Shown: positions 1-30,904 of the stretch, in pieces
How the letters are laid out: each line of letters opens with the position of its first letter
Position numbering within the stretch: position 1 is the first letter of the stretch
Virus record (IMG/VR): IMGVR_UViG_2711768040_000011
Coordinates: 1-44,606 of that record
Length of the DNA stretch: 44,606 nucleotides
Origin: a virus
Taxonomy: Duplodnaviria > Heunggongvirae > Uroviricota > Caudoviricetes
Direction: 5' to 3' (one strand)
Program-made: the position numbers and the translations under genes
The notes under the pieces: generated by a model
Databases searched by the model: none
What the model saw: only the letters and a program-made list of their open reading frames with translations
Told to the model about the DNA's origin: nothing

Positions 1-672
1 ATGTGTGGACGTTTTGCACAAGCCCAAACCCGTGAAGACTATCTGGCGTACCTGGCCGACGAAGGAGATCGTGACATCGCCTACGACCCGGAGCCTATTG
101 GCCGTTACAACGTGTCGCCCGGTACCAAAGTCCTACTGCTGAGCGAGCGAGACGAGCAGCTGCATCTCGATCCGGTTCTGTGGTCGTACGCGCCCGGGTG
201 GTGGGATAAGCAGCCGCTGATTAACGCGCGCGTCGAGACGGCGGCCACTAGCAGAATGTTCAAACCTCTCTGGCAGCATGGCCGGGCGATCTGTTTTGCG
301 GATGGATGGTTTGAATGGAAGAAGGAAGGCGACAAGAAACAGCCCTACTTCATTCACCGGGCCGATGGCCTGCCCATTTTCATGGCGGCGATCGGCAGTA
401 CGCCTTTCGAACGCGGCGATGAAGCGGAAGGATTTCTGATAGTGACGTCTGCAGCTGACAAAGGCCTGGTCGATATTCACGACCGCCGGCCGCTGGTTCT
501 GTCACCTGAAGCGGCGCGCGAATGGATGCGTCAGGATGTAGGCGGGAAAGAAGCTGAGGAGATAATTGCCGACGGTACAGTGCCCGCCGACAAGTTTATC
601 TGGCACCCTGTTACGCGCGCCGTGGGCAATGTGAAGAATCAGGGCTCGGAGCTGATCCAGCCGCTTTCGTGA
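1..672 (+). CDS. yedK: SOS response-associated peptidase (SRAP/YedK family, abasic-site DNA-protein crosslink enzyme)
   Basis: 223-aa ORF beginning MCGRFAQ (Cys2 nucleophile hallmark of SRAP); starts at window base 1. Confidence 0.85.
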   Translation: MCGRFAQAQTREDYLAYLADEGDRDIAYDPEPIGRYNVSPGTKVLLLSERDEQLHLDPVLWSYAPGWWDKQPLINARVETAATSRMFKPLWQHGRAICFADGWFEWKKEGDKKQPYFIHRADGLPIFMAAIGSTPFERGDEAEGFLIVTSAADKGLVDIHDRRPLVLSPEAAREWMRQDVGGKEAEEIIADGTVPADKFIWHPVTRAVGNVKNQGSELIQPLS

Positions 673-681
673 GTTGCGGGT

Positions 682-999
682 TTATATCGGAAGCTCGTCA
701 TCCCTCGCACGGTTGATGAAGAACGTCACCCGCCCCATCACCTCTACCTCTTCCAGTGCCGGGCCTTCTATCGCCTCGCCATCGTCCGTGATTAACGCCT
801 TACCCATCAACTTGGCGAACTGCGTATGCCCTTCGCACAGGATCAGCAACACATCGCCTGGCGTCTTTTTCGTAGCCGGCTCTATTACTGCGTACCCCGT
901 ATCAGTCTCGAGAACCCTGCTCTCGGGCTTAATGTGGCACAGAACAACCGGGGAGAGCTGGCGCTCAACGTAATCCATCGCCGGTGAAGGAAATCCCAT
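682..999 (-). CDS. UmuD'-like protein (HumD-like; LexA/S24 fold, starts at the position of processed UmuD')
   Basis: N-terminus MGFPSPAMDYVERQ matches the UmuD segment immediately after the RecA-dependent cleavage site (GFPSPAADYVEQ); C-terminal blocks resemble UmuD; start overlaps upstream stop (TGATG). Confidence 0.55.
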   Translation of the reverse strand: MGFPSPAMDYVERQLSPVVLCHIKPESRVLETDTGYAVIEPATKKTPGDVLLILCEGHTQFAKLMGKALITDDGEAIEGPALEEVEVMGRVTFFINRARDDELPI

Positions 1000-1238
1000 C
1001 AGTGAACCCTCCCCATGTTGCGCAGGATCCAGTAGTGGTTGTCTGTCCCGTCAGTCGTCTTATCCGTGAAGTCTGGCTGATAGCGATCTATCCAGGCATT
1101 GGCGTCTGTTCGGGTAAAGTGCCAGTTGAACTCCCGCAGCTTCTCGATAAAGCTGTCTGTGCTCAGATAGCGGTAGCCCTTGGGATTGAGCTGTATGACC
1201 GCAACAAAGGCGGCATGTATGTCTGCTGTGCGTGGCAT
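999..1238 (-). CDS. hypothetical protein, first gene of SOS-box cassette
   Basis: 79-aa ORF from ATG at 1238 with GAGGTG SD; translationally coupled to downstream UmuD'-like gene; LexA box 19-34 nt upstream. Confidence 0.45.
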   Translation of the reverse strand: MPRTADIHAAFVAVIQLNPKGYRYLSTDSFIEKLREFNWHFTRTDANAWIDRYQPDFTDKTTDGTDNHYWILRNMGRVH

Positions 1239-4627: not shown

Positions 4628-7105
4628 TTATTGATAGATGGCGTCGCTGTACTCTGCGACAGTCAGAGATACCGTGTTATCTGTGTTCGGTTTGATGCTG
4701 TTGACCTTCCATAGTTGGCTGTTCAGCTCTTCCACTGTCGCAATGAGGTAGCGCGACGGGAGCTGTACAGTGTCTCCGTTCCAGATATTGAGTTGAATCT
4801 CGGGTATTGCCGCGGTGAATCCGTACTTCGTATCGGCGCGGGCGGTGGCCGGATAGCGCAGAGTCGGGTTGCCCAGGCTGTCGGTCACCAGGACATACAT
4901 CGAGCCGGTAAACGTTATTGGCTCGCTGGTATCAAAATTATTCCCGGCGCGGCCAGTGATATAACCTTGCTGCTGGTTGCTGTCGTAGATATCCGCTATC
5001 TGCACGACGCTACCGACCTGCATGATCCCGTCCTCAAACACTTTGGCGTTCATCTTCACCCGGGAGTAGATAAGGCGCCTCGTTTCGCGCAGAGCGCGTT
5101 CCCGCGCCTGATACTCGTTACGGAAGCCGACTATCTCGATTTTGTTCGGGTTCTCCGCTTCCTGCTCGACGATAGCGCCGTTCAGAACGCGGTAGTTGAT
5201 GTACGTCTTGTTGTTCGTGGTTGGATGCACGTAGGACACCTGCACGCCGTCGTAGCCGCCAGGAAGAGTGGCCTCGTACGTCATTTTGTACTCGTCCGTC
5301 TTCATGTTGGCACGGTTGAATACGGCCGCCGGGTAGTCAACCTTTTGATCACGGGTAAACGTCAGCACGCCGTCGTCCCAGTACGCAATGACAGATGCCG
5401 CATTGCAGATCGCCTGCACGCGGTCGCCGAGAGAATCGTTCTCGTCATCAAACGTGTAGTCGAAGTAACCCAGGCGTTCGTCAGGTAAGCTTTCAGCGAT
5501 CGAGTACAGGCCGTAAAGGTCAATGCTGCTAACAGGTTGCTCACCCATAATCAGCCAGGTATGCGCCACTGCATCAGCGAACGAGCGCGAGGCCCGCAGG
5601 GTGTAATCCACCGCTTGCGTCGTCAGGTTGTAACTGATGGTCTGACGCGTCACCAGGGCGTTGTATTTGCGGTCACGGCTGCCCAGGGCGTTCTCCGTCG
5701 CCCTTACCTTCACGCGCACCAGCGTATCGGTTGGATGCACGACGTTGGTTCTGACGTTGACCGAGTGGATCTCCTCAACCTTCAGGATAGAGGCATCACT
5801 GGAGTTATCTGTGCGCTGGAAGTTAATGGCGTACTTGCCGAAACCGCCGGTCGGCGTCAGCTTATCGGTGCGGTAAAATACTTCGCTCGATGATTTGTGC
5901 GGCGTACCCTGATGGTAGGTGAACGTCTGTTGCGTTCCCGGCACCTGGTTGTAGTCATCGTCAATCTTCCAGATCGTTACCTTCCAGTCAGCGGACTTTT
6001 TGCCGCCCAGCTGCACCTGAGTGTGCAGCCACAACTGAGAGGATTCGACAGGCGAGAAGAACGGGCCTACCACGAGCGCTTCGTTATCGTTGAGTATGAA
6101 CTTTGTCGTGTTGATGGTCGCCGTTGCCGGCACGTCAGGAGGGCCAATCAGATCCCCCATCGTGAATGTGTACCACCGGACCGGGTTAACCACTGCGCCG
6201 TCGTTGGTTTCGACAGCTGAAATCAGCGTGCCGGAGAAATCGACATCCTGCGTAACGTTTCCGGTTGGCGAGCTGTAGGTGACGTTAATCGTAAAGGTAA
6301 CGGCGTGCGGCAGGACCAGGCCCATGAAGTAATCAAACTCAGGCTGCTTGACGATTTTTACTGCAATCTGCCCGCCGGAGTAAGTTCCGCTCACAACCGT
6401 AGTAGCCGTAGCAGTCTCGATCGGGAAATTATCCGATTCGTTTTGCCCGGGCACTTCCTGGCCATCCACGTCGTCGAACCCGTAGCCTTCGTTGATGGTA
6501 GGGATCACTTCACCCGGCTGGTAAAACTGGAATTCTGCACCGGCCATGCTTCCGAGGCTGGACTCTGAATAACGCACAGACTCGTAATCATATTTGCCGA
6601 TCCCGATGCACATCCACTCAGTAACGTACTTCAGGCCGCCATCCGTGTCGCTCTGGCGCACGTATTCGAACAGCGACTCCTGAATCAGGTCCGGGAACGA
6701 ACGGATTTGTCCGTAGATGTCCGGTTTTGCTTTGTAGACGCGTGCCGTATTCGTCTGGCCGGTTAGGCTATTGTTTGGCGAGTCAATCGTGTTGCCGCCG
6801 GTATTGGCTATCGCCGGCTTTGGTGCAAGGAAAGAGAATACCGCGCCGACAACTTTGAAGATCGGGCTGAGAATGTCGCCAATGATGCCCTTGGGCTGGT
6901 CGAATATCTGGACGGTGTCCAGTTCACATAGCTCAAACGCCAGCTCATCATCTTCGCCCAGCTTTACGCCGTTGCGGACGATCAGCAGATCGCGGTGAAA
7001 GGTAGCGTCATTAGCTGCAAGCCAGTCATAAAAAAGGGTGCCGTTTGGCACCCTGCAACGCAGCTTAGGCGTTCCTGGAAAATTCGATATCTCAACCAGA
7101 GCCAT
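4628..7105 (-). CDS. tail tip / host specificity protein (gpJ-like central tail fibre)
   Basis: 825-aa ORF directly downstream of NlpC/P60 tail gene in conserved tail-tip order. Confidence 0.65.
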   Translation of the reverse strand: MALVEISNFPGTPKLRCRVPNGTLFYDWLAANDATFHRDLLIVRNGVKLGEDDELAFELCELDTVQIFDQPKGIIGDILSPIFKVVGAVFSFLAPKPAIANTGGNTIDSPNNSLTGQTNTARVYKAKPDIYGQIRSFPDLIQESLFEYVRQSDTDGGLKYVTEWMCIGIGKYDYESVRYSESSLGSMAGAEFQFYQPGEVIPTINEGYGFDDVDGQEVPGQNESDNFPIETATATTVVSGTYSGGQIAVKIVKQPEFDYFMGLVLPHAVTFTINVTYSSPTGNVTQDVDFSGTLISAVETNDGAVVNPVRWYTFTMGDLIGPPDVPATATINTTKFILNDNEALVVGPFFSPVESSQLWLHTQVQLGGKKSADWKVTIWKIDDDYNQVPGTQQTFTYHQGTPHKSSSEVFYRTDKLTPTGGFGKYAINFQRTDNSSDASILKVEEIHSVNVRTNVVHPTDTLVRVKVRATENALGSRDRKYNALVTRQTISYNLTTQAVDYTLRASRSFADAVAHTWLIMGEQPVSSIDLYGLYSIAESLPDERLGYFDYTFDDENDSLGDRVQAICNAASVIAYWDDGVLTFTRDQKVDYPAAVFNRANMKTDEYKMTYEATLPGGYDGVQVSYVHPTTNNKTYINYRVLNGAIVEQEAENPNKIEIVGFRNEYQARERALRETRRLIYSRVKMNAKVFEDGIMQVGSVVQIADIYDSNQQQGYITGRAGNNFDTSEPITFTGSMYVLVTDSLGNPTLRYPATARADTKYGFTAAIPEIQLNIWNGDTVQLPSRYLIATVEELNSQLWKVNSIKPNTDNTVSLTVAEYSDAIYQ

Positions 7106-27665: not shown

Positions 27666-27832
27666 GCAGATTTTCTCCTCGCCGCGAGACGCAGCCATTT
27701 CTGATCCACCAGACGGGCGGTGTAGCCCTTCAGTGTCGGGATGTCGGACGGCTTAACCGCAGGCTTACGCTGGCGGCGCGCAGGAACGCGGAATATTTCG
27801 TTTGTGATGATGCGGGAAAGTGGAGTAGACAT
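27662..27832 (-). CDS. small hypothetical protein (56 aa, NinF-position), not in supplied ORF track
   Basis: Hand-translated [23 protein letters not shown]...; AGGAGG SD; ATGA overlaps with NinB stop and phosphatase start. Confidence 0.45.
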
Positions 27833-28287
27833 CAGGCCTCCTGCTTATCGCGCAGCTGCTGGTATTCACAGCTCTGCGGAATGGTCAGGTGGCAGCCGAT
27901 ATTCATCGCCCAGGCTTCGACCTTGCACAGGAAGATGTACATTTCGCCAGTTTCCAGATCAGACGTATGGCGGAGGGATTGGACGGTGGTGACCTCGCCG
28001 GACACGACGTCTACACGGTCTTTGCTTTCGTAGCCGAGATAGGTGTGCTTCATCGCGTCTTTGACCCACTCAGGCGTAGCGAAGGTCTTGCCGCGGGCGA
28101 TGAGGTACTCGCTGATTTCCGTGTACCACATGTGGCTGAGCGCGTTCTGTGACAGGCTGCGCTTCTCTCGCCACGGCTTAACCTGCAGGCGGAAGCACTG
28201 CCCGGCATCCAGCAATGGCTGAATCTGCTGGCCGATGGCCGCGAAGTTGCCACGATGGAGTTTGATACCGTCTACTGGCAGAGTCAT
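27832..28287 (-). CDS. ninB: NinB recombination protein
   Basis: 151-aa ORF with EKRSLSQNA block resembling lambda NinB; position ahead of nin genes. Confidence 0.7.
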   Translation of the reverse strand: MTLPVDGIKLHRGNFAAIGQQIQPLLDAGQCFRLQVKPWREKRSLSQNALSHMWYTEISEYLIARGKTFATPEWVKDAMKHTYLGYESKDRVDVVSGEVTTVQSLRHTSDLETGEMYIFLCKVEAWAMNIGCHLTIPQSCEYQQLRDKQEA

Positions 28288-28499
28288 ACGGCCTCCTTAA
28301 CGGAAACCGCAGAATGCAGAAAATCGCAGGTGCATTTCTGCATCTGTGACAATGTGAGGAGTTCAGATTGTGGTCGCATTTAAGTCCCCTTAAATGCGCA
28401 GAAGTCACCAATGGGTGTTCAGACCATCAGCAAAGAAAGTATGGACGGTTGATTCAACAAAATCAACTGAAGAGAAAGGCCTCCGGAGAGGCCAATGAG

Positions 28500-28781
28500 T
28501 TAGTCGTCCACGCGTTTAAAGCACTGCGGGCAAACATCATTTCCACCGTGTTCTTCGTATGCGCTTTTAACAGCATCAGTCATCTCTTTAAAGCTTTCGA
28601 ATAGATGACTACCGTTGCTTTTTTTATAAGCTCCGGCTGCGTATTTGTAGATGTCGGACTCTTCTATGCCCTCATCAACATAAGTGCCCTCATGATGAGG
28701 GCACTGCGTTAAAGCGCCAACCCTACCAAGCATCTCCAATGCCCAACACTCTTGTTTCATGCAAAGTTGATCGATACTCAT
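28500..28781 (-). CDS. hypothetical Cys-containing small protein (AT-rich cassette)
   Basis: 93 aa from ATG 28781 with AGGAGG SD; Cys pairs incl. CPQC; AT-rich. Confidence 0.5.
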   Translation of the reverse strand: MSIDQLCMKQECWALEMLGRVGALTQCPHHEGTYVDEGIEESDIYKYAAGAYKKSNGSHLFESFKEMTDAVKSAYEEHGGNDVCPQCFKRVDD

Positions 28782-29047
28782 AACGCCTCCTGTTGGTTTT
28801 ACATCGCCAAATGAATGTACCACCATGCAAGAGGAAATGAAGCAGTTAAATTGTAAAACATGTGTATATATCAATGAGTTAAAATAGTTTGCTATTTTTC
28901 TTACAGCCTTGCTGCGTCGAATGGGTTAGGCATGGCGACCTCTACACGAGCTGAAAATATAAGCCGCTACAGCCAAATCCTGAATTGCTGTTATTGCCAG
29001 CATCCAACCATAAATGCTGTCATTGAAATGCCACGCCAGCGCTGTAA

Positions 29048-29263
29048 TCACGGCTTCACCTCCTTAGCCGTTTTGACGATTGCAGCGAGGCACTTCTTGC
29101 ATGGAACCTGCAATGAACCCTGCTCAATGCTCAACAGTGCATGCTGAGCGTCCTGAAACAACCAGTCAGAAAATTGAGGCTTATGTCCGCACCATGTTTC
29201 TGTTTCATGCTTCGCAAGTTTTACGCCGTCACGATAGTCATATTTGATGATGTGATTACTCAC
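29048..29263 (-). CDS. small hypothetical protein (AT-rich cassette)
   Basis: 71-aa ORF, GTG start with AGGAGG SD, overlaps Lar stop. Confidence 0.45.
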   Translation of the reverse strand: MSNHIIKYDYRDGVKLAKHETETWCGHKPQFSDWLFQDAQHALLSIEQGSLQVPCKKCLAAIVKTAKEVKP

Positions 29264-29559
29264 GGCTGTACCTCCTGCTGCGGTGCTGCAATTAGTTCTA
29301 GCGTGAAGCCGTCTTGCTTAAGACTATCAATGTAAGCCGCAGTTCTCCTGCGCTCGCCAGCACATGCCAGCGTTTCTGGGTCGTAAAACCACACCTTCAT
29401 TCGGCTATTCCATGCAGAAATTGCTTCAGCCTTATTGCGCTTTAATGGCCCATGAGCACCACATTTGCAGTGGACGTAGCGCTTCTTTCCCATAATACTG
29501 AATGAGTAGCCAATACCAAGCGCTGTCGATTCGCAAAATGGGCAGAGTAGTGGAGTCAT
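29260..29559 (-). CDS. lar: Lar-family restriction alleviation protein
   Basis: CPFCES...VHCKCGAHGP...AISAWNSR motif set typical of Lar/RalR family; AGGAGG SD. Confidence 0.7.
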   Translation of the reverse strand: MTPLLCPFCESTALGIGYSFSIMGKKRYVHCKCGAHGPLKRNKAEAISAWNSRMKVWFYDPETLACAGERRRTAAYIDSLKQDGFTLELIAAPQQEVQP

Positions 29560-30260
29560 TTATCCTCCTGCTGAGGTGCTGCTGAAGATGCAAAAATATC
29601 AATCAGCGTATCTTCTCCCATGCTATTGCAATGAGCCTGAAGCCTATTGATGATTGCCTGAAGAGCAAACTTCGGAACCATATTTTCCTTACCTATCTGC
29701 GGGCAGTTTTCGGTACCGAACCAAAATTGCTCGATCTGCAGCAGCAGACCATTTTTGCCTTCAGTTGCACTGAATACGCCGAACGCTTCAATGTCGTATG
29801 CTTTCGCAATCACAGGAGAGTTGCCATCGGCACCCTGAAGCATGGCGGCGCGGCGCTCCCAGTCAGCTATTGCGGCTGAATGTTCCATCGAGTCGTCGCC
29901 AAACTCAGCATGTGCGCACTCGTCTGCCGCATTGGCGGCAGTTTTCGCAATCGTCAAGAGATCTGACAGGAGCGAATCAGATATCGGTGCTGGCGGGGCG
30001 GTGTAAAGCGGCTCACATTCCCAGCCTTGCTTTTGCCAGGATGCCAGGACATTTTTTGAATCTGTCAGAAGGCCGTGATTCTCGTAATAAAGCGATCGCC
30101 ACGCCACAGGATCCGCTTCGAGAGATGCCAGCGCGATACGAAACACCTCTGCAGTCATGCTGCGAGGCGACTGATTGTCATGCGCTGGGTCGGTAAGGAA
30201 GCCAGTAATAAACGCCTTCAATTGCTGATTGTGAATATCGCGTTTGTCGATGTTGCTCAT
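29556..30260 (-). CDS. hypothetical protein
   Basis: ORF start MSNIDKRD (ATG 30260; ORF open to 30275); coupled to neighbours. Confidence 0.5.
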   Translation of the reverse strand: MSNIDKRDIHNQQLKAFITGFLTDPAHDNQSPRSMTAEVFRIALASLEADPVAWRSLYYENHGLLTDSKNVLASWQKQGWECEPLYTAPPAPISDSLLSDLLTIAKTAANAADECAHAEFGDDSMEHSAAIADWERRAAMLQGADGNSPVIAKAYDIEAFGVFSATEGKNGLLLQIEQFWFGTENCPQIGKENMVPKFALQAIINRLQAHCNSMGEDTLIDIFASSAAPQQEDK

Positions 30261-30904
30261 TGGGCGGTCCTCCAACCTTCACATTCAATGTCACTGCAGC
30301 CATCGAAATCGTATGGATTTAGCTGCCAGCTAATCTTTCCGCAGCAAGGGCAATTCCAGCGAACCTTACCGCTGCGTGATTTTTTTCGGTTGTGCTTTTT
30401 CAGCCACTCAGGCATGACAAGCCCTGCCGCCTGAACCATGGTGCGTCGGTTAAACTCATTGATGCTGAACGTGCGGCGCTTAGCCTTGTCAGCTAAAGCA
30501 AAAGGAATCCAGACAATGCCAGGCTCTGCCGTGTTGGCGGATACAAAAACGAATGCCTTACTGAAGTCGTCAGTTGGAAGGCCTCCATGTTGCAACCAGT
30601 ACACATCGTTACCGTTCCAACTGCCTTTTTTGTAGGCCACATAGGACTCACAGCCAGGCTCAATAACACTTTCGGTAGGTATGTACTGACAATCGACATG
30701 CCAGACAGCCATGGAATCAACACTGTCAGCGCAAACCGGCTGATCAATCTCTCTACCCAATTCCCAGCTTCTTTGAGCTTCTTCACGGGTGTACACGTGG
30801 GCGCGGTCTATATTGGAGCTATATCCGTTGCCGTTGTGGCAGTGGAATGACGCGTTACTGCCAACCGTTTCGCGAGTACAAAGCATGTAAAATCTATCGC
30901 TCAT
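30257..30904 (-). CDS. hypothetical protein with C-terminal CPCCG Cys cluster
   Basis: 215-aa ORF, overlapping start/stop with neighbours. Confidence 0.5.
   Translation of the reverse strand: MSDRFYMLCTRETVGSNASFHCHNGNGYSSNIDRAHVYTREEAQRSWELGREIDQPVCADSVDSMAVWHVDCQYIPTESVIEPGCESYVAYKKGSWNGNDVYWLQHGGLPTDDFSKAFVFVSANTAEPGIVWIPFALADKAKRRTFSINEFNRRTMVQAAGLVMPEWLKKHNRKKSRSGKVRWNCPCCGKISWQLNPYDFDGCSDIECEGWRTAQ

What the first reader, a model, noticed from the sequence alone, without database searches (positions are those of the whole stretch)
28476..29559. AT-rich cassette in the nin region: Lar anti-restriction protein plus two small unknown Cys-containing proteins
Three consecutive small genes (99, 71 and 93 aa), each with an AGGAGG-type SD, appear AT-rich relative to neighbours and end at a hairpin at 28478-28493. 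The first is a Lar/RalR-type restriction alleviation protein; the other two have no assignable function but carry Cys pairs (CPQC, CGHK...CKKC). They may be additional anti-defence factors co-travelling with Lar.
Basis: partly seen in the sequence, partly recalled or inferred. Interest (0 to 1): 0.5.

Follow-up and report, generated by a model that had tools for sequence, protein, structure and literature searches.

The report
Ordinary lambdoid accessory genes: Lar, Ea8.5
This stretch of a phi80-like prophage holds four small early genes that are shuffled independently between phages: a Lar-family gene, an uncharacterised zinc-motif gene, a tiny hydrophobic ORF and a clear copy of lambda's ea8.5. 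It is a mosaic accessory region, not a linked anti-defence cassette.

Summary
The three genes are real, on the minus strand, at the stated coordinates. Each has an AGGAGG ribosome-binding site, and the hairpin at 28478-28493 is present.

The description is incomplete in four ways:
- A fourth ORF of 41 aa (28926-29051) was missed.
- A 144-nt AT-rich spacer separates ea8.5 from the other genes.
- The low-GC zone runs further, from about 28300 to 30900.
- The hairpin belongs to the conserved ninB leader, not to the cassette.

Identities:
- The 99-aa protein passes the curated Lar cut-offs. It is only 27% identical to Rac RalR and carries an extra conserved C-terminal domain.
- The 93-aa protein is not unassignable. 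It is an Ea8.5 orthologue: 51% identical to lambda Ea8.5 over all 93 residues, Pfam PF20735, with solved homologue 2M7A.
- The 71-aa protein belongs to a large uncharacterised phage family (PHROG 4090). Cys25, Cys55 and Cys58 are invariant and His41 nearly so. A confident model finds no solved structural analogue.

Linkage fails. Gene-2 homologues sit next to Lar only in this one haplotype. Elsewhere they have many other neighbours, joined through a recurring "AAPQQEVKP" boundary sequence.

Only Lar has a homology-based anti-restriction reading. Ea8.5 is tied in the literature to the lysis-lysogeny decision. Overall this is ordinary, of low to moderate interest.

The parts
29260..29559 (-). 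Lar-family gene, 99 aa. The N-terminal zinc-ribbon-like domain covers residues 1-53 (C6, C9, C31, C33 and a WN.R motif). A conserved C-terminal domain covers residues 54-99 and is absent from Rac RalR. The start is an ATGA overlap with the upstream gene.
29048..29263 (-). Gene 2, 71 aa, GTG start with a GTGA overlap onto the Lar stop codon. It is a PHROG 4090 member. C25, C55 and C58 are invariant and H41 is at least 90% conserved, a putative zinc site. Function is unknown.
It has a GTG start, an AGGAGG site and a GTGA overlap with gene 2. It is moderately hydrophobic. A 38-aa form occurs upstream of gene 2 in two other phages (L030, L034) and downstream of it in L008.
   Evidence: (called in L006).
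28782..28925 (-). AT-rich spacer of 144 nt (GC 0.375) between orf41 and ea8.5. It has no convincing sigma-70 promoter and no significant RNA structure.
   Evidence: It is conserved together with ea8.5 in E. coli HL15.
28500..28781 (-). Orthologue of lambda ea8.5, 93 aa, acidic (pI 4.8). The C27-x2-H30 and C84-x2-C87 motifs are conserved with both solved homologues.
28478..28493 (-). Terminator-like hairpin followed by a T-rich tail. It is the first element of the conserved ninB leader and is shared with prophages that lack ea8.5.
28288..28477 (-). Remainder of the conserved, strongly structured ninB leader. It includes the phi80 'IR4' hairpin and an ORF of 31 aa (28284-28379) equivalent to phage 82 orf33.
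29556..30904 (-). Two upstream genes (215 aa at 30257-30904, and 234/239 aa at 29556-30275). ATGA overlaps join them to Lar, so they form one translationally coupled chain with Lar, gene 2 and orf41.
29045..29064 (-). Boundary repeat that contains the ribosome-binding site (AGGAGGTGAAGCCGTGA). Related copies lie at 29257-29289 and 29564-29582. It encodes the shared '..QEVKP' C-terminal tails.
   Evidence: (families D6, D7).

Best explanation
The region is the variable accessory slot between the replication genes and ninB in the early-right (pR) operon of a phi80/CobraSix-like lambdoid prophage of Enterobacteriaceae.

It holds independently mobile small genes of the kind usually found in the exo-xis or 'ea' region of the early-left operon:
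- a Lar-family gene;
- a PHROG 4090 gene with a conserved Cys/His motif;
- a 41-aa hydrophobic ORF;
- after a spacer, an ea8.5 orthologue.

The 215-aa gene, the 234-aa gene, Lar, gene 2 and orf41 are joined by 4-nt stop/start overlaps. They are probably translated as one coupled chain from the N-antiterminated early transcript (inferred). ea8.5 is a separate module. The hairpin after it is the first element of the conserved ninB leader, which is positionally like lambda tR2 (inferred).

The block was probably assembled by recombination at a recurring boundary sequence that contains the ribosome-binding site. This sequence adds an '..AAPQQEVKP' tail to whatever gene lies upstream (recurrence shown; mechanism inferred).

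Functions, all inferred by homology:
- Lar most likely alleviates type I (EcoKI-like) restriction early in infection.
- Ea8.5 most likely acts through protein-protein contacts on the lysis-lysogeny decision.
- Gene 2 is probably a small zinc-binding early protein whose target is unknown.
For: Context:
- The window matches phi80, CobraSix, HK639 and HK225 in its early region.
- Gene order is helicase, small genes, NinB, NinE, phosphatase, NinG, Q.
- The same slot holds entirely different genes in phi80, CobraSix and E. coli HL15, G3/10 and KCJ3K291.

Identities:
- Lar scores are above the curated cut-offs.
- Ea8.5 is supported by PF20735, PDB 2M7A and 51% identity to lambda Ea8.5.
- Gene 2 matches PHROG 4090 at E 3e-42. 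A profile search finds 416 representative clusters at E <= 0.001. Median dN/dS is 0.10. The model has pLDDT 94.9.

Independence of the modules:
- The identical Lar + gene 2 pair also sits in an early-left region after Rad52/SSB/Abc2 (L008).
- Gene-2 homologues sit between the recombination genes and int in P22-like prophages and in mEp043, without Lar. They also occur in early operons of virulent Jerseyvirus and Kagunavirus phages.
- Lar is the upstream neighbour in only 1 of 41 distinct cases.
- RalR in Rac and ea8.5 in lambda both lie in the recombination-to-xis region.

Boundary motif: 25 of 41 distinct upstream proteins end in a QEVK-type tail, and 19 overlap gene 2 by 4 nt. The window has its own repeats of the motif.

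Hairpin: it is shared with prophages that have other upstream genes.

Literature:
- Lar and Ral are believed to enhance de novo EcoKI methylation; the mechanism is unknown (PMC3177214).
- Extra copies of ea8.5 or of the whole exo-xis region modulate cII-dependent transcription (PMC3824215).
- The Ea8.5 fold is a homeodomain/zinc-finger hybrid (PMC8614690).
Against: - No expression or functional data exist for any of these four genes.
- The Pfam Lar score is only 1 bit above its cut-off, and identity to RalR is 27%. Restriction alleviation may therefore not be conserved, especially given the added C-terminal domain.
- Zinc binding by gene 2 is inferred from conserved C/H/C/C only. The model coordinates could not be inspected.
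- The tight translational coupling of Lar and gene 2, and their joint transfer to another genomic position (L008), could still reflect cooperation within this particular haplotype.
- The early-left regions where the homologues live are also where known counter-defence genes such as abc2 reside. An anti-defence role for gene 2 is therefore not excluded.
Confidence: 0.75

Rival explanations
1. One reading: the three genes form a functional anti-defence cassette. Lar blocks type I restriction, and the two Cys-containing proteins are further anti-restriction or anti-defence factors that travel with it.
For: - All are small early proteins with conserved Cys/His motifs in a hypervariable accessory slot.
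- Lar and gene 2 are translationally coupled.
- Lar and gene 2 moved together into an early-left locus next to abc2 (L008).
- Ea8.5 is strongly acidic (pI 4.8), as some DNA-mimic anti-restriction proteins are. That comparison is from general knowledge.
Against: - Linkage is confined to one haplotype: 8 of 65 loci, all with a gene 2 identical to the window's.
- Ea8.5 and gene-2 homologues occur without Lar.
- The three proteins are not homologous to one another.
- In the held literature Ea8.5 is tied to cII-dependent transcription, cell division and lysogeny, not to defence.
- ea8.5 is separated from the rest by a 144-nt spacer.
Confidence: 0.12
2. ea8.5 is a moron: an autonomous unit with its own promoter in the AT-rich spacer and its own terminator at 28478-28493, expressed from the repressed prophage to benefit the lysogen.
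For: - The spacer is AT-rich (GC 0.375), and a terminator-like hairpin lies 6 nt after the stop codon.
- Spacer, gene and hairpin are conserved as a unit, at 91% identity, in E. coli HL15 behind a different upstream gene.
Against: - No sigma-70-like site with at least 9 of 12 matches lies in the spacer. The best is a weak extended -10 candidate.
- The hairpin is shared with prophages that lack ea8.5 and is contiguous with the ninB leader.
- In lambda, ea8.5 lies in the exo-xis region, whose genes are described as among the earliest transcribed on infection (abstracts listed).
Confidence: 0.1
3. The Lar-family gene acts as a RalR-type DNase toxin of a type I toxin-antitoxin pair rather than as a restriction-alleviation factor.
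For: Rac RalR, the founding Lar, was reported to be a non-specific DNase toxin countered by the sRNA RalA (PMC4041452).
Against: - Identity to RalR is only 27%.
- Scans found no Rfam match and no opposite-strand promoter or terminator pair across the gene.
- Rac's neighbouring gene rcbA, which the antitoxin RalA overlaps, has no counterpart here; gene 2 is unrelated to RcbA.
Confidence: 0.05

Closest known systems
Lar / RalR of the E. coli K-12 Rac prophage (Pfam PF14354, NCBIfam TIGR03655)
   Same: - The N-terminal ~53 residues align with RalR, including CPFC, a second Cys pair and the EA..WN.R motif.
- Scores exceed both curated cut-offs.
- The domain is basic (pI about 9.5, against 9.1 for RalR).
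- It is an early phage accessory gene.
   Different: - Identity is only 27%.
- There is an additional conserved acidic C-terminal domain (residues 54-99).
- The gene sits upstream of ninB in the pR operon rather than between recT and xis.
- No RalA or rcbA counterpart is present.
- Activity is untested.
Bacteriophage lambda Ea8.5 (Pfam PF20735; NMR structures 2M7A and 2M7B of prophage homologues)
   Same: - Same length (93 aa), with 51% identity along the full length.
- The C-x2-H and C-x2-C motifs are conserved.
- Same acidic pI of 4.8.
- It is preceded by a non-coding spacer, as in lambda.
   Different: It lies next to ninB in the early-right operon, not in the exo-xis region of the early-left operon. 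The biochemical function is unresolved even for lambda Ea8.5.
PHROG 4090: small hypothetical proteins such as mEp043 gp32 and Salmonella phage SETP3 ORF48
   Same: - Full-length match (E 3e-42).
- 77% identical to mEp043 gp32.
- Same C/H/C/C pattern.
- Expressed from early-type accessory gene clusters.
   Different: The neighbours differ. In most relatives the gene follows a 61-63-aa protein or a DUF551/EaA-type protein, not Lar. In mEp043 and in L008 it is followed by a DUF4752 protein.
Boundary or linker sequences of mosaic lambdoid phages (concept from comparative genomics of lambdoid phages; cited from general knowledge)
   Same: A short conserved sequence at gene junctions recurs between otherwise unrelated neighbouring genes. 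This is consistent with module exchange by recombination at those sites.
   Different: Here the boundary includes the ribosome-binding site and start codon of the downstream gene. It therefore imposes a common '..AAPQQEVKP' tail on unrelated upstream proteins.

Membership tests
Lar restriction-alleviation family (PF14354 / TIGR03655) | Profile score above the curated cut-off. | tested here: met
   PF14354 scores 29.7 bits against 28.6. TIGR03655 scores 46.9 against 39.6. PHROG 599 gives E 1.7e-11.
Lar restriction-alleviation family (PF14354 / TIGR03655) | Zinc-ribbon-like Cys pairs and the WN.R motif aligned with Rac RalR. | tested here: met
   BLASTP gives 27% identity over 48 residues, with CPFC and WN.R aligned. 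In the subfamily, C31 and C33 are invariant and C6 and C9 are at least 90% conserved.
Lar restriction-alleviation family (PF14354 / TIGR03655) | Single-domain protein of about 55-70 aa, as in RalR (64 aa) and phi80 gp59 (68 aa). | tested here: not met
   The protein is 99 aa. Residues 54-99 form a conserved extra domain present in 18 of 19 aligned sequences; one extra-long member diverges near its C-terminal end.
Lar restriction-alleviation family (PF14354 / TIGR03655) | Alleviates EcoKI-type restriction and enhances modification. | not testable with these tools
   Known only for Rac Lar (PMC3177214).
Lambda Ea8.5 family (PF20735) | Profile score above the cut-off and full-length collinearity with lambda Ea8.5. 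| tested here: met
   PF20735 scores 76 bits against 27. Identity to lambda Ea8.5 is 51% over residues 1-93, E 5e-34. 2M7A gives E 1.3e-19.
Lambda Ea8.5 family (PF20735) | Cys/His motifs of the zinc-finger part are conserved. | tested here: met
   C27, H30, C84 and C87 align with Cys/His in 2M7A, 2M7B and lambda Ea8.5. Their identity as the metal ligands was not checked against the structures.
Lambda Ea8.5 family (PF20735) | Location in the exo-xis region of the early-left operon. | tested here: not met
   Here, and in E. coli HL15, the gene lies immediately upstream of the ninB leader. In lambda it lies between ea22 and xis.
PHROG 4090 (gene 2) | Full-length profile match. | tested here: met
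   E 3.1e-42, residues 1-69 matched to profile positions 1-69 of 71. The family has no Pfam, NCBIfam or PADLOC model.
Co-evolving anti-defence cassette | Conserved co-localisation of the member genes across diverged relatives. | tested here: not met
   Lar is upstream of gene 2 only in loci whose gene 2 is identical to the window's. There are 40 other distinct upstream neighbours. Ea8.5 occurs alone elsewhere.
Moron (autonomous promoter-gene-terminator unit), for ea8.5 | Own promoter upstream and own terminator downstream. | tested here: inconclusive
   A terminator-like hairpin is present but shared with the ninB-leader backbone. No promoter reaches 9 of 12 matches.
RalR/RalA type I toxin-antitoxin | Antisense or trans sRNA antitoxin next to the toxin gene. 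| tested here: inconclusive
   No Rfam hit at E <= 1. Consensus scans find no opposite-strand promoter/terminator pair over the gene. No RNA data are available.

The most novel reading that the evidence does not exclude
Gene 2 represents a widespread family of about 70-aa phage proteins with a conserved Cys/His motif. The family has 416 clusters at the 50% identity level and occurs in both temperate and virulent phages. It has no Pfam model, and a confident model finds no solved structural analogue. The most novel reading not excluded is that this family is a new host-takeover or counter-defence effector, expressed in the first minutes of infection. In this haplotype it might cooperate with the extended Lar protein, to which it is translationally coupled.
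Probability: 0.2. Interest if true: 0.55.

Novelty: new member of a known kind. Interest (0 to 1): 0.25.

Why it matters
The result corrects an over-reading. The '93-aa unknown' is lambda's ea8.5, and the apparent cassette is a chance assembly of independently mobile modules.

Three practical points follow:
1. 'Lar family' labels rest on one characterised protein. This subfamily has an untested extra domain.
2. PHROG 4090 is a compact, well-conserved and easily cloned family of unknown function, and a reasonable candidate for anti-defence or host-takeover screens.
3. The recurring boundary that contains the ribosome-binding site shows how such genes are swapped between the early-left and early-right operons of lambdoid phages.

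Tried and rejected
- PADLOC models: no hits for any of the six proteins tested. This is uninformative, because PADLOC covers defence rather than anti-defence.
- Sequence search of solved structures with Lar (single sequence and profile) and with gene 2 (single sequence and profile): only chance-level hits. Weak APOBEC 'PCxxC' and ClpX zinc-domain matches (E about 0.4) were rejected as insignificant.
- First structure model of gene 2, built from 30 close homologues: poor (pLDDT 61). It was replaced by a model from a 118-sequence alignment (pLDDT 94.9).
- Is gene 2 related to RcbA, the neighbour of ralR in Rac? No.
- Are the three proteins remote homologues of one another? hhalign probabilities are about 2%.
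- Is the 234-aa upstream protein Ea22-like? There is no significant similarity to lambda Ea22 or to the mEp043 Ea22-like protein.
- Is there a second Lar gene in the window, such as a phi80 gp59 homologue? None was found.
- Rfam search over 28100-29700: nothing at E <= 1.
- Spacer 28782-28925: no significant RNA fold (z -0.7) and no good promoter.
Alignment A1 was used instead.
- Kwan et al. 2013, the Ea8.5 structure paper, is not in the held library.
Full report
OBSERVATION

All relevant genes are on the minus strand. The ORF list and the sequence show, in the direction of transcription:
- a 215-aa gene (30257-30904);
- a 234/239-aa gene (29556-30275);
- a 99-aa gene (29260-29559);
- a 71-aa gene with a GTG start (29048-29263);
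- a 41-aa ORF with a GTG start (28926-29051);
- a 144-nt spacer;
- a 93-aa gene (ATG at 28781, stop at 28500-28502);
- a 212-nt non-coding stretch;
- ninB (27832-28287).

The 99-, 71-, 41- and 93-aa ORFs each have AGGAGG 6-8 nt before the start codon. The genes from the 215-aa gene through orf41 are chained by 4-nt ATGA or GTGA stop/start overlaps.

GC content of the stated interval is 0.464, against 0.530 for the window. This is the 8th percentile of equal-length windows. The spacer (0.375) and the 93-aa gene (0.45) are the lowest. Lar is 0.50, and the two upstream genes are 0.50-0.515. ninB is 0.58 (GC3 0.76). So there is a moderately AT-rich zone from about 28300 to 30900, not a sharply bounded cassette.

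The hairpin GGCCTC-TCCG-GAGGCC followed by TTTCTCTT is at 28478-28493. Its dG is -13.0 kcal/mol.

CONTEXT

The window is a lambdoid prophage whose early region matches phi80, Enterobacter phage CobraSix, HK639 and HK225. A rough ORF map, read by position and by analogy with those phages, puts integrase at the right end. The early-left genes lie on the plus strand. The early-right operon lies on the minus strand. Only the genes from the 215-aa gene to NinG were profile-searched.

The early-right operon reads: O-like gene, DnaB-type helicase, small genes, NinB, NinE, Ser/Thr phosphatase, NinG, Q, lysis genes, terminase. The finding therefore lies in the variable slot between the replication genes and ninB.

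That slot holds completely different genes in phi80, CobraSix and E. coli HL15, G3/10 and KCJ3K291.

The four exact proteins are already public:
- The Lar, gene 2 and Ea8.5 proteins are each seen on about 435-490 contigs, and orf41 on 49.
- The records are named from E. coli, Salmonella enterica and Enterobacter.
- The annotations are 'Lar family restriction alleviation protein' for one and 'hypothetical protein' for the other three.

GENE BY GENE

(1) The 99-aa protein
- It passes Pfam PF14354 narrowly (29.7 bits against 28.6) and NCBIfam TIGR03655 comfortably (46.9 against 39.6). It also matches PHROG 599.
- Compared with Rac RalR, taken from MG1655, it is 27% identical over 48 residues. CPFC and WN.R are aligned.
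- Homologues at 64-99% identity, mostly from Enterobacter, conserve the whole length. This includes a C-terminal domain (residues 54-99, with invariant E69, R70, R71, T73, Y76 and I77) that RalR and phi80 gp59 lack.
- It is a Lar-family member by sequence, of an extended subfamily. Restriction alleviation has been shown only for Rac Lar, and its mechanism is unknown (PMC3177214). RalR has also been described as a DNase toxin (PMC4041452).

(2) The 71-aa protein (gene 2)
- It matches PHROG 4090 over its full length (E 3e-42). No Pfam, NCBIfam or PADLOC model matches it.
- Close homologues form 47 clusters at 61-91% identity, all labelled hypothetical.
- A profile search of 1.84 billion representative proteins finds 416 clusters at E <= 0.001, most of those listed being 60-90 aa long.
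- In a 118-sequence alignment, C25, C55 and C58 are invariant. G26, F36 and H41 are at least 90% conserved. This pattern suggests a zinc site.
- Median dN/dS against 27 homologues is 0.10, so it is a real gene under purifying selection.
- AlphaFold2 with the deep alignment gives pLDDT 94.9. The model has a short beta region and two helices.
- Homologues occur in temperate phages (mEp043, mEp213, IME10) and in virulent ones (Jerseyvirus SETP3, Kagunavirus, Klebsiella and Vibrio phages). They always lie among small genes of unknown function.

(3) orf41
- In L008, L030 and L034 a 38-aa version keeps the GTG start, the ribosome-binding site and a stop codon embedded in the next gene's ribosome-binding site.
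- It lies downstream of gene 2 in the window and in L008, but upstream of gene 2 in L030 and L034.
- dN/dS is 0.12-0.20, based on few substitutions.
- Hydropathy is moderate, with a maximum of 1.49 over 19 residues.
- One record calls the 38-aa form a 'putative membrane protein'.
- It is probably a real tiny gene.

(4) The 93-aa protein
- It matches Pfam PF20735 (Lambda_ea8_5) at E 3.7e-21.
- It matches the solved prophage homologues 2M7A (E 1.3e-19, full length) and 2M7B.
- It is 51% identical to lambda Ea8.5 itself over all 93 residues.
- C27-x2-H30 and C84-x2-C87 are conserved in all of these.
- The window protein and lambda Ea8.5 are both acidic (pI 4.8). This favours protein partners over DNA binding (inference).
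- The literature describes a homeodomain/zinc-finger hybrid fold. It also reports yeast two-hybrid partners and early work on cell-division synchrony (PMC8614690). Extra copies of ea8.5 or of the whole exo-xis region modulate cII-dependent transcription (PMC3824215).
- No held paper links the exo-xis genes to anti-defence.

ARE THE GENES LINKED?

I collected 65 loci with gene-2 homologues. I mapped the window's proteins onto them and extracted the ORF immediately upstream of each.
- Lar is upstream in 8 loci, all with a gene 2 identical to the window's. Seven of these carry the whole block from the 215-aa gene through NinE. One, L008, carries just Lar + gene 2 + an orf41-like sequence, in an early-left region after Rad52/SSB/Abc2.
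- The other 40 distinct upstream neighbours are unrelated. They include a 61-63-aa protein (the commonest), DUF551/EaA-type proteins and small zinc-ribbon-like proteins.
- Ea8.5 homologues occur next to ninB without Lar or gene 2 in E. coli HL15, and in lambda's exo-xis region.
- The three proteins are not detectably homologous to one another.

So the co-travelling hypothesis fails beyond this single haplotype.

A unifying point is that characterised or annotated relatives of all three live in the recombination-to-xis accessory region of the early-left operon:
- ralR in Rac;
- ea8.5 in lambda;
- gene 2 in mEp043 and in P22-like prophages.

Here they occupy the analogous accessory slot of the early-right operon.

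HOW THE MOSAIC IS BUILT

Of the 41 distinct upstream proteins, 25 end in a '..(A)APQQEVK(P/S)'-type tail, and 19 overlap gene 2 by 4 nt. The tail is encoded by the sequence that carries gene 2's ribosome-binding site and start codon.

The window contains related copies of this boundary at the 239-aa/Lar, Lar/gene 2 and gene 2/orf41 junctions (families D6 and D7).

This fits recombination at short conserved gene boundaries. The recurrence is shown here; the mechanism is inferred.

THE HAIRPIN AND THE ninB LEADER

- The 28478-28493 hairpin is conserved in E. coli G3/10 and KCJ3K291 behind different upstream genes.
- It is absent from phi80 and CobraSix, which share the rest of the leader.
- It therefore belongs to the ninB-leader backbone and is positionally like lambda tR2 (inference).
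- Consistent with this, no convincing promoter lies in the spacer before ea8.5. The 'moron' reading is therefore weak.

VERDICT

Of the interpretation:
- 'Lar' holds at family level.
- 'Unassignable' is wrong for the Ea8.5 orthologue.
- 'Co-travelling anti-defence factors' is not supported.

The region is an ordinary mosaic accessory segment of a lambdoid prophage, made of known families. The one open item is the function of the PHROG 4090 family.

Noticed in passing
window 28288-28510, minus strand: The non-coding leader upstream of ninB folds into five or six consecutive hairpins. Its MFE is -81.1 kcal/mol, against -54.3 +/- 4.4 for shuffles (z -6.1). It has no Rfam match. Parts of it match more than 1000 E. 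coli genomes, and its core recurs in phi80, HK225, HK639, CobraSix and phage 82-type phages, with long invariant runs. Its role is unexplained; it could act in termination or antitermination, in RNA processing, or in translational control.
   Followed up: partly
window 28375-28400 (phi80 'IR4') compared with L076 (phage 82) about 115-143: This hairpin keeps the same GGGA (GNRA-type) loop in two sequence types whose inner stems differ: GCGCATTTAAG/CTTAAATGCG versus GCGCTAAACG/CGTTTATGCGC. That amounts to several compensatory changes. dG is -13.3 and -14.4 kcal/mol. The loop doubles as the ribosome-binding site of a small ORF, and the 3' arm holds that ORF's ATG. This suggests translational control.
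   Followed up: partly
window 28284-28379, minus strand: An ORF of 31 aa (MRPQSELLTLSQMQKCTCDFLHSAVSVKEAV) has a stop codon that overlaps the ninB start as ATGA. It is the counterpart of phage 82 'orf33' and of HK225 gp59. The reading frame is kept despite a 3-nt length difference, and the core SQMQKCTC.FLH is conserved. Whether the conservation is due to the peptide or to RNA structure is unresolved.
   Followed up: partly
window 29564-29582, 29257-29289 and 29045-29064; loci L020-L047: A recurring boundary sequence contains the ribosome-binding site (..GCAGCACCGCAGCAGGAGGTnAAGCCGTGA). It gives unrelated upstream proteins (Lar, DUF551/EaA-type, zinc-ribbon proteins, a 63-aa protein) the same C-terminal '..AAPQQEVKP' tail. 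It is a likely recombination joint for cassette shuffling.
   Followed up: partly
window 29556-30904, minus strand: The 215-aa (PHROG 2457) and 234/239-aa genes upstream of Lar have no Pfam or NCBIfam assignment. They are translationally coupled to Lar. The 234-aa protein shows 28-53% partial similarity to sequences that lie shortly upstream of gene-2 homologues in other phages. It is not similar to lambda Ea22.
   Followed up: partly
window 1-1000: The left end carries what look like non-phage genes: a 223-aa ORF starting MCGRFAQ... and a 105-aa ORF on the opposite strand. Their identities were judged from sequence appearance only (YedK/SRAP-like and UmuD-like). If correct, one prophage boundary lies near 1-2.6 kb.
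   Followed up: no
L016 (E. coli K-12 Rac) 6839-7009: Rac also encodes YdaE, a 56-aa protein annotated as 'zinc-binding protein', in the same early-left operon as ralR. This is another case of small Cys-rich early proteins clustering in these accessory regions.
   Followed up: no
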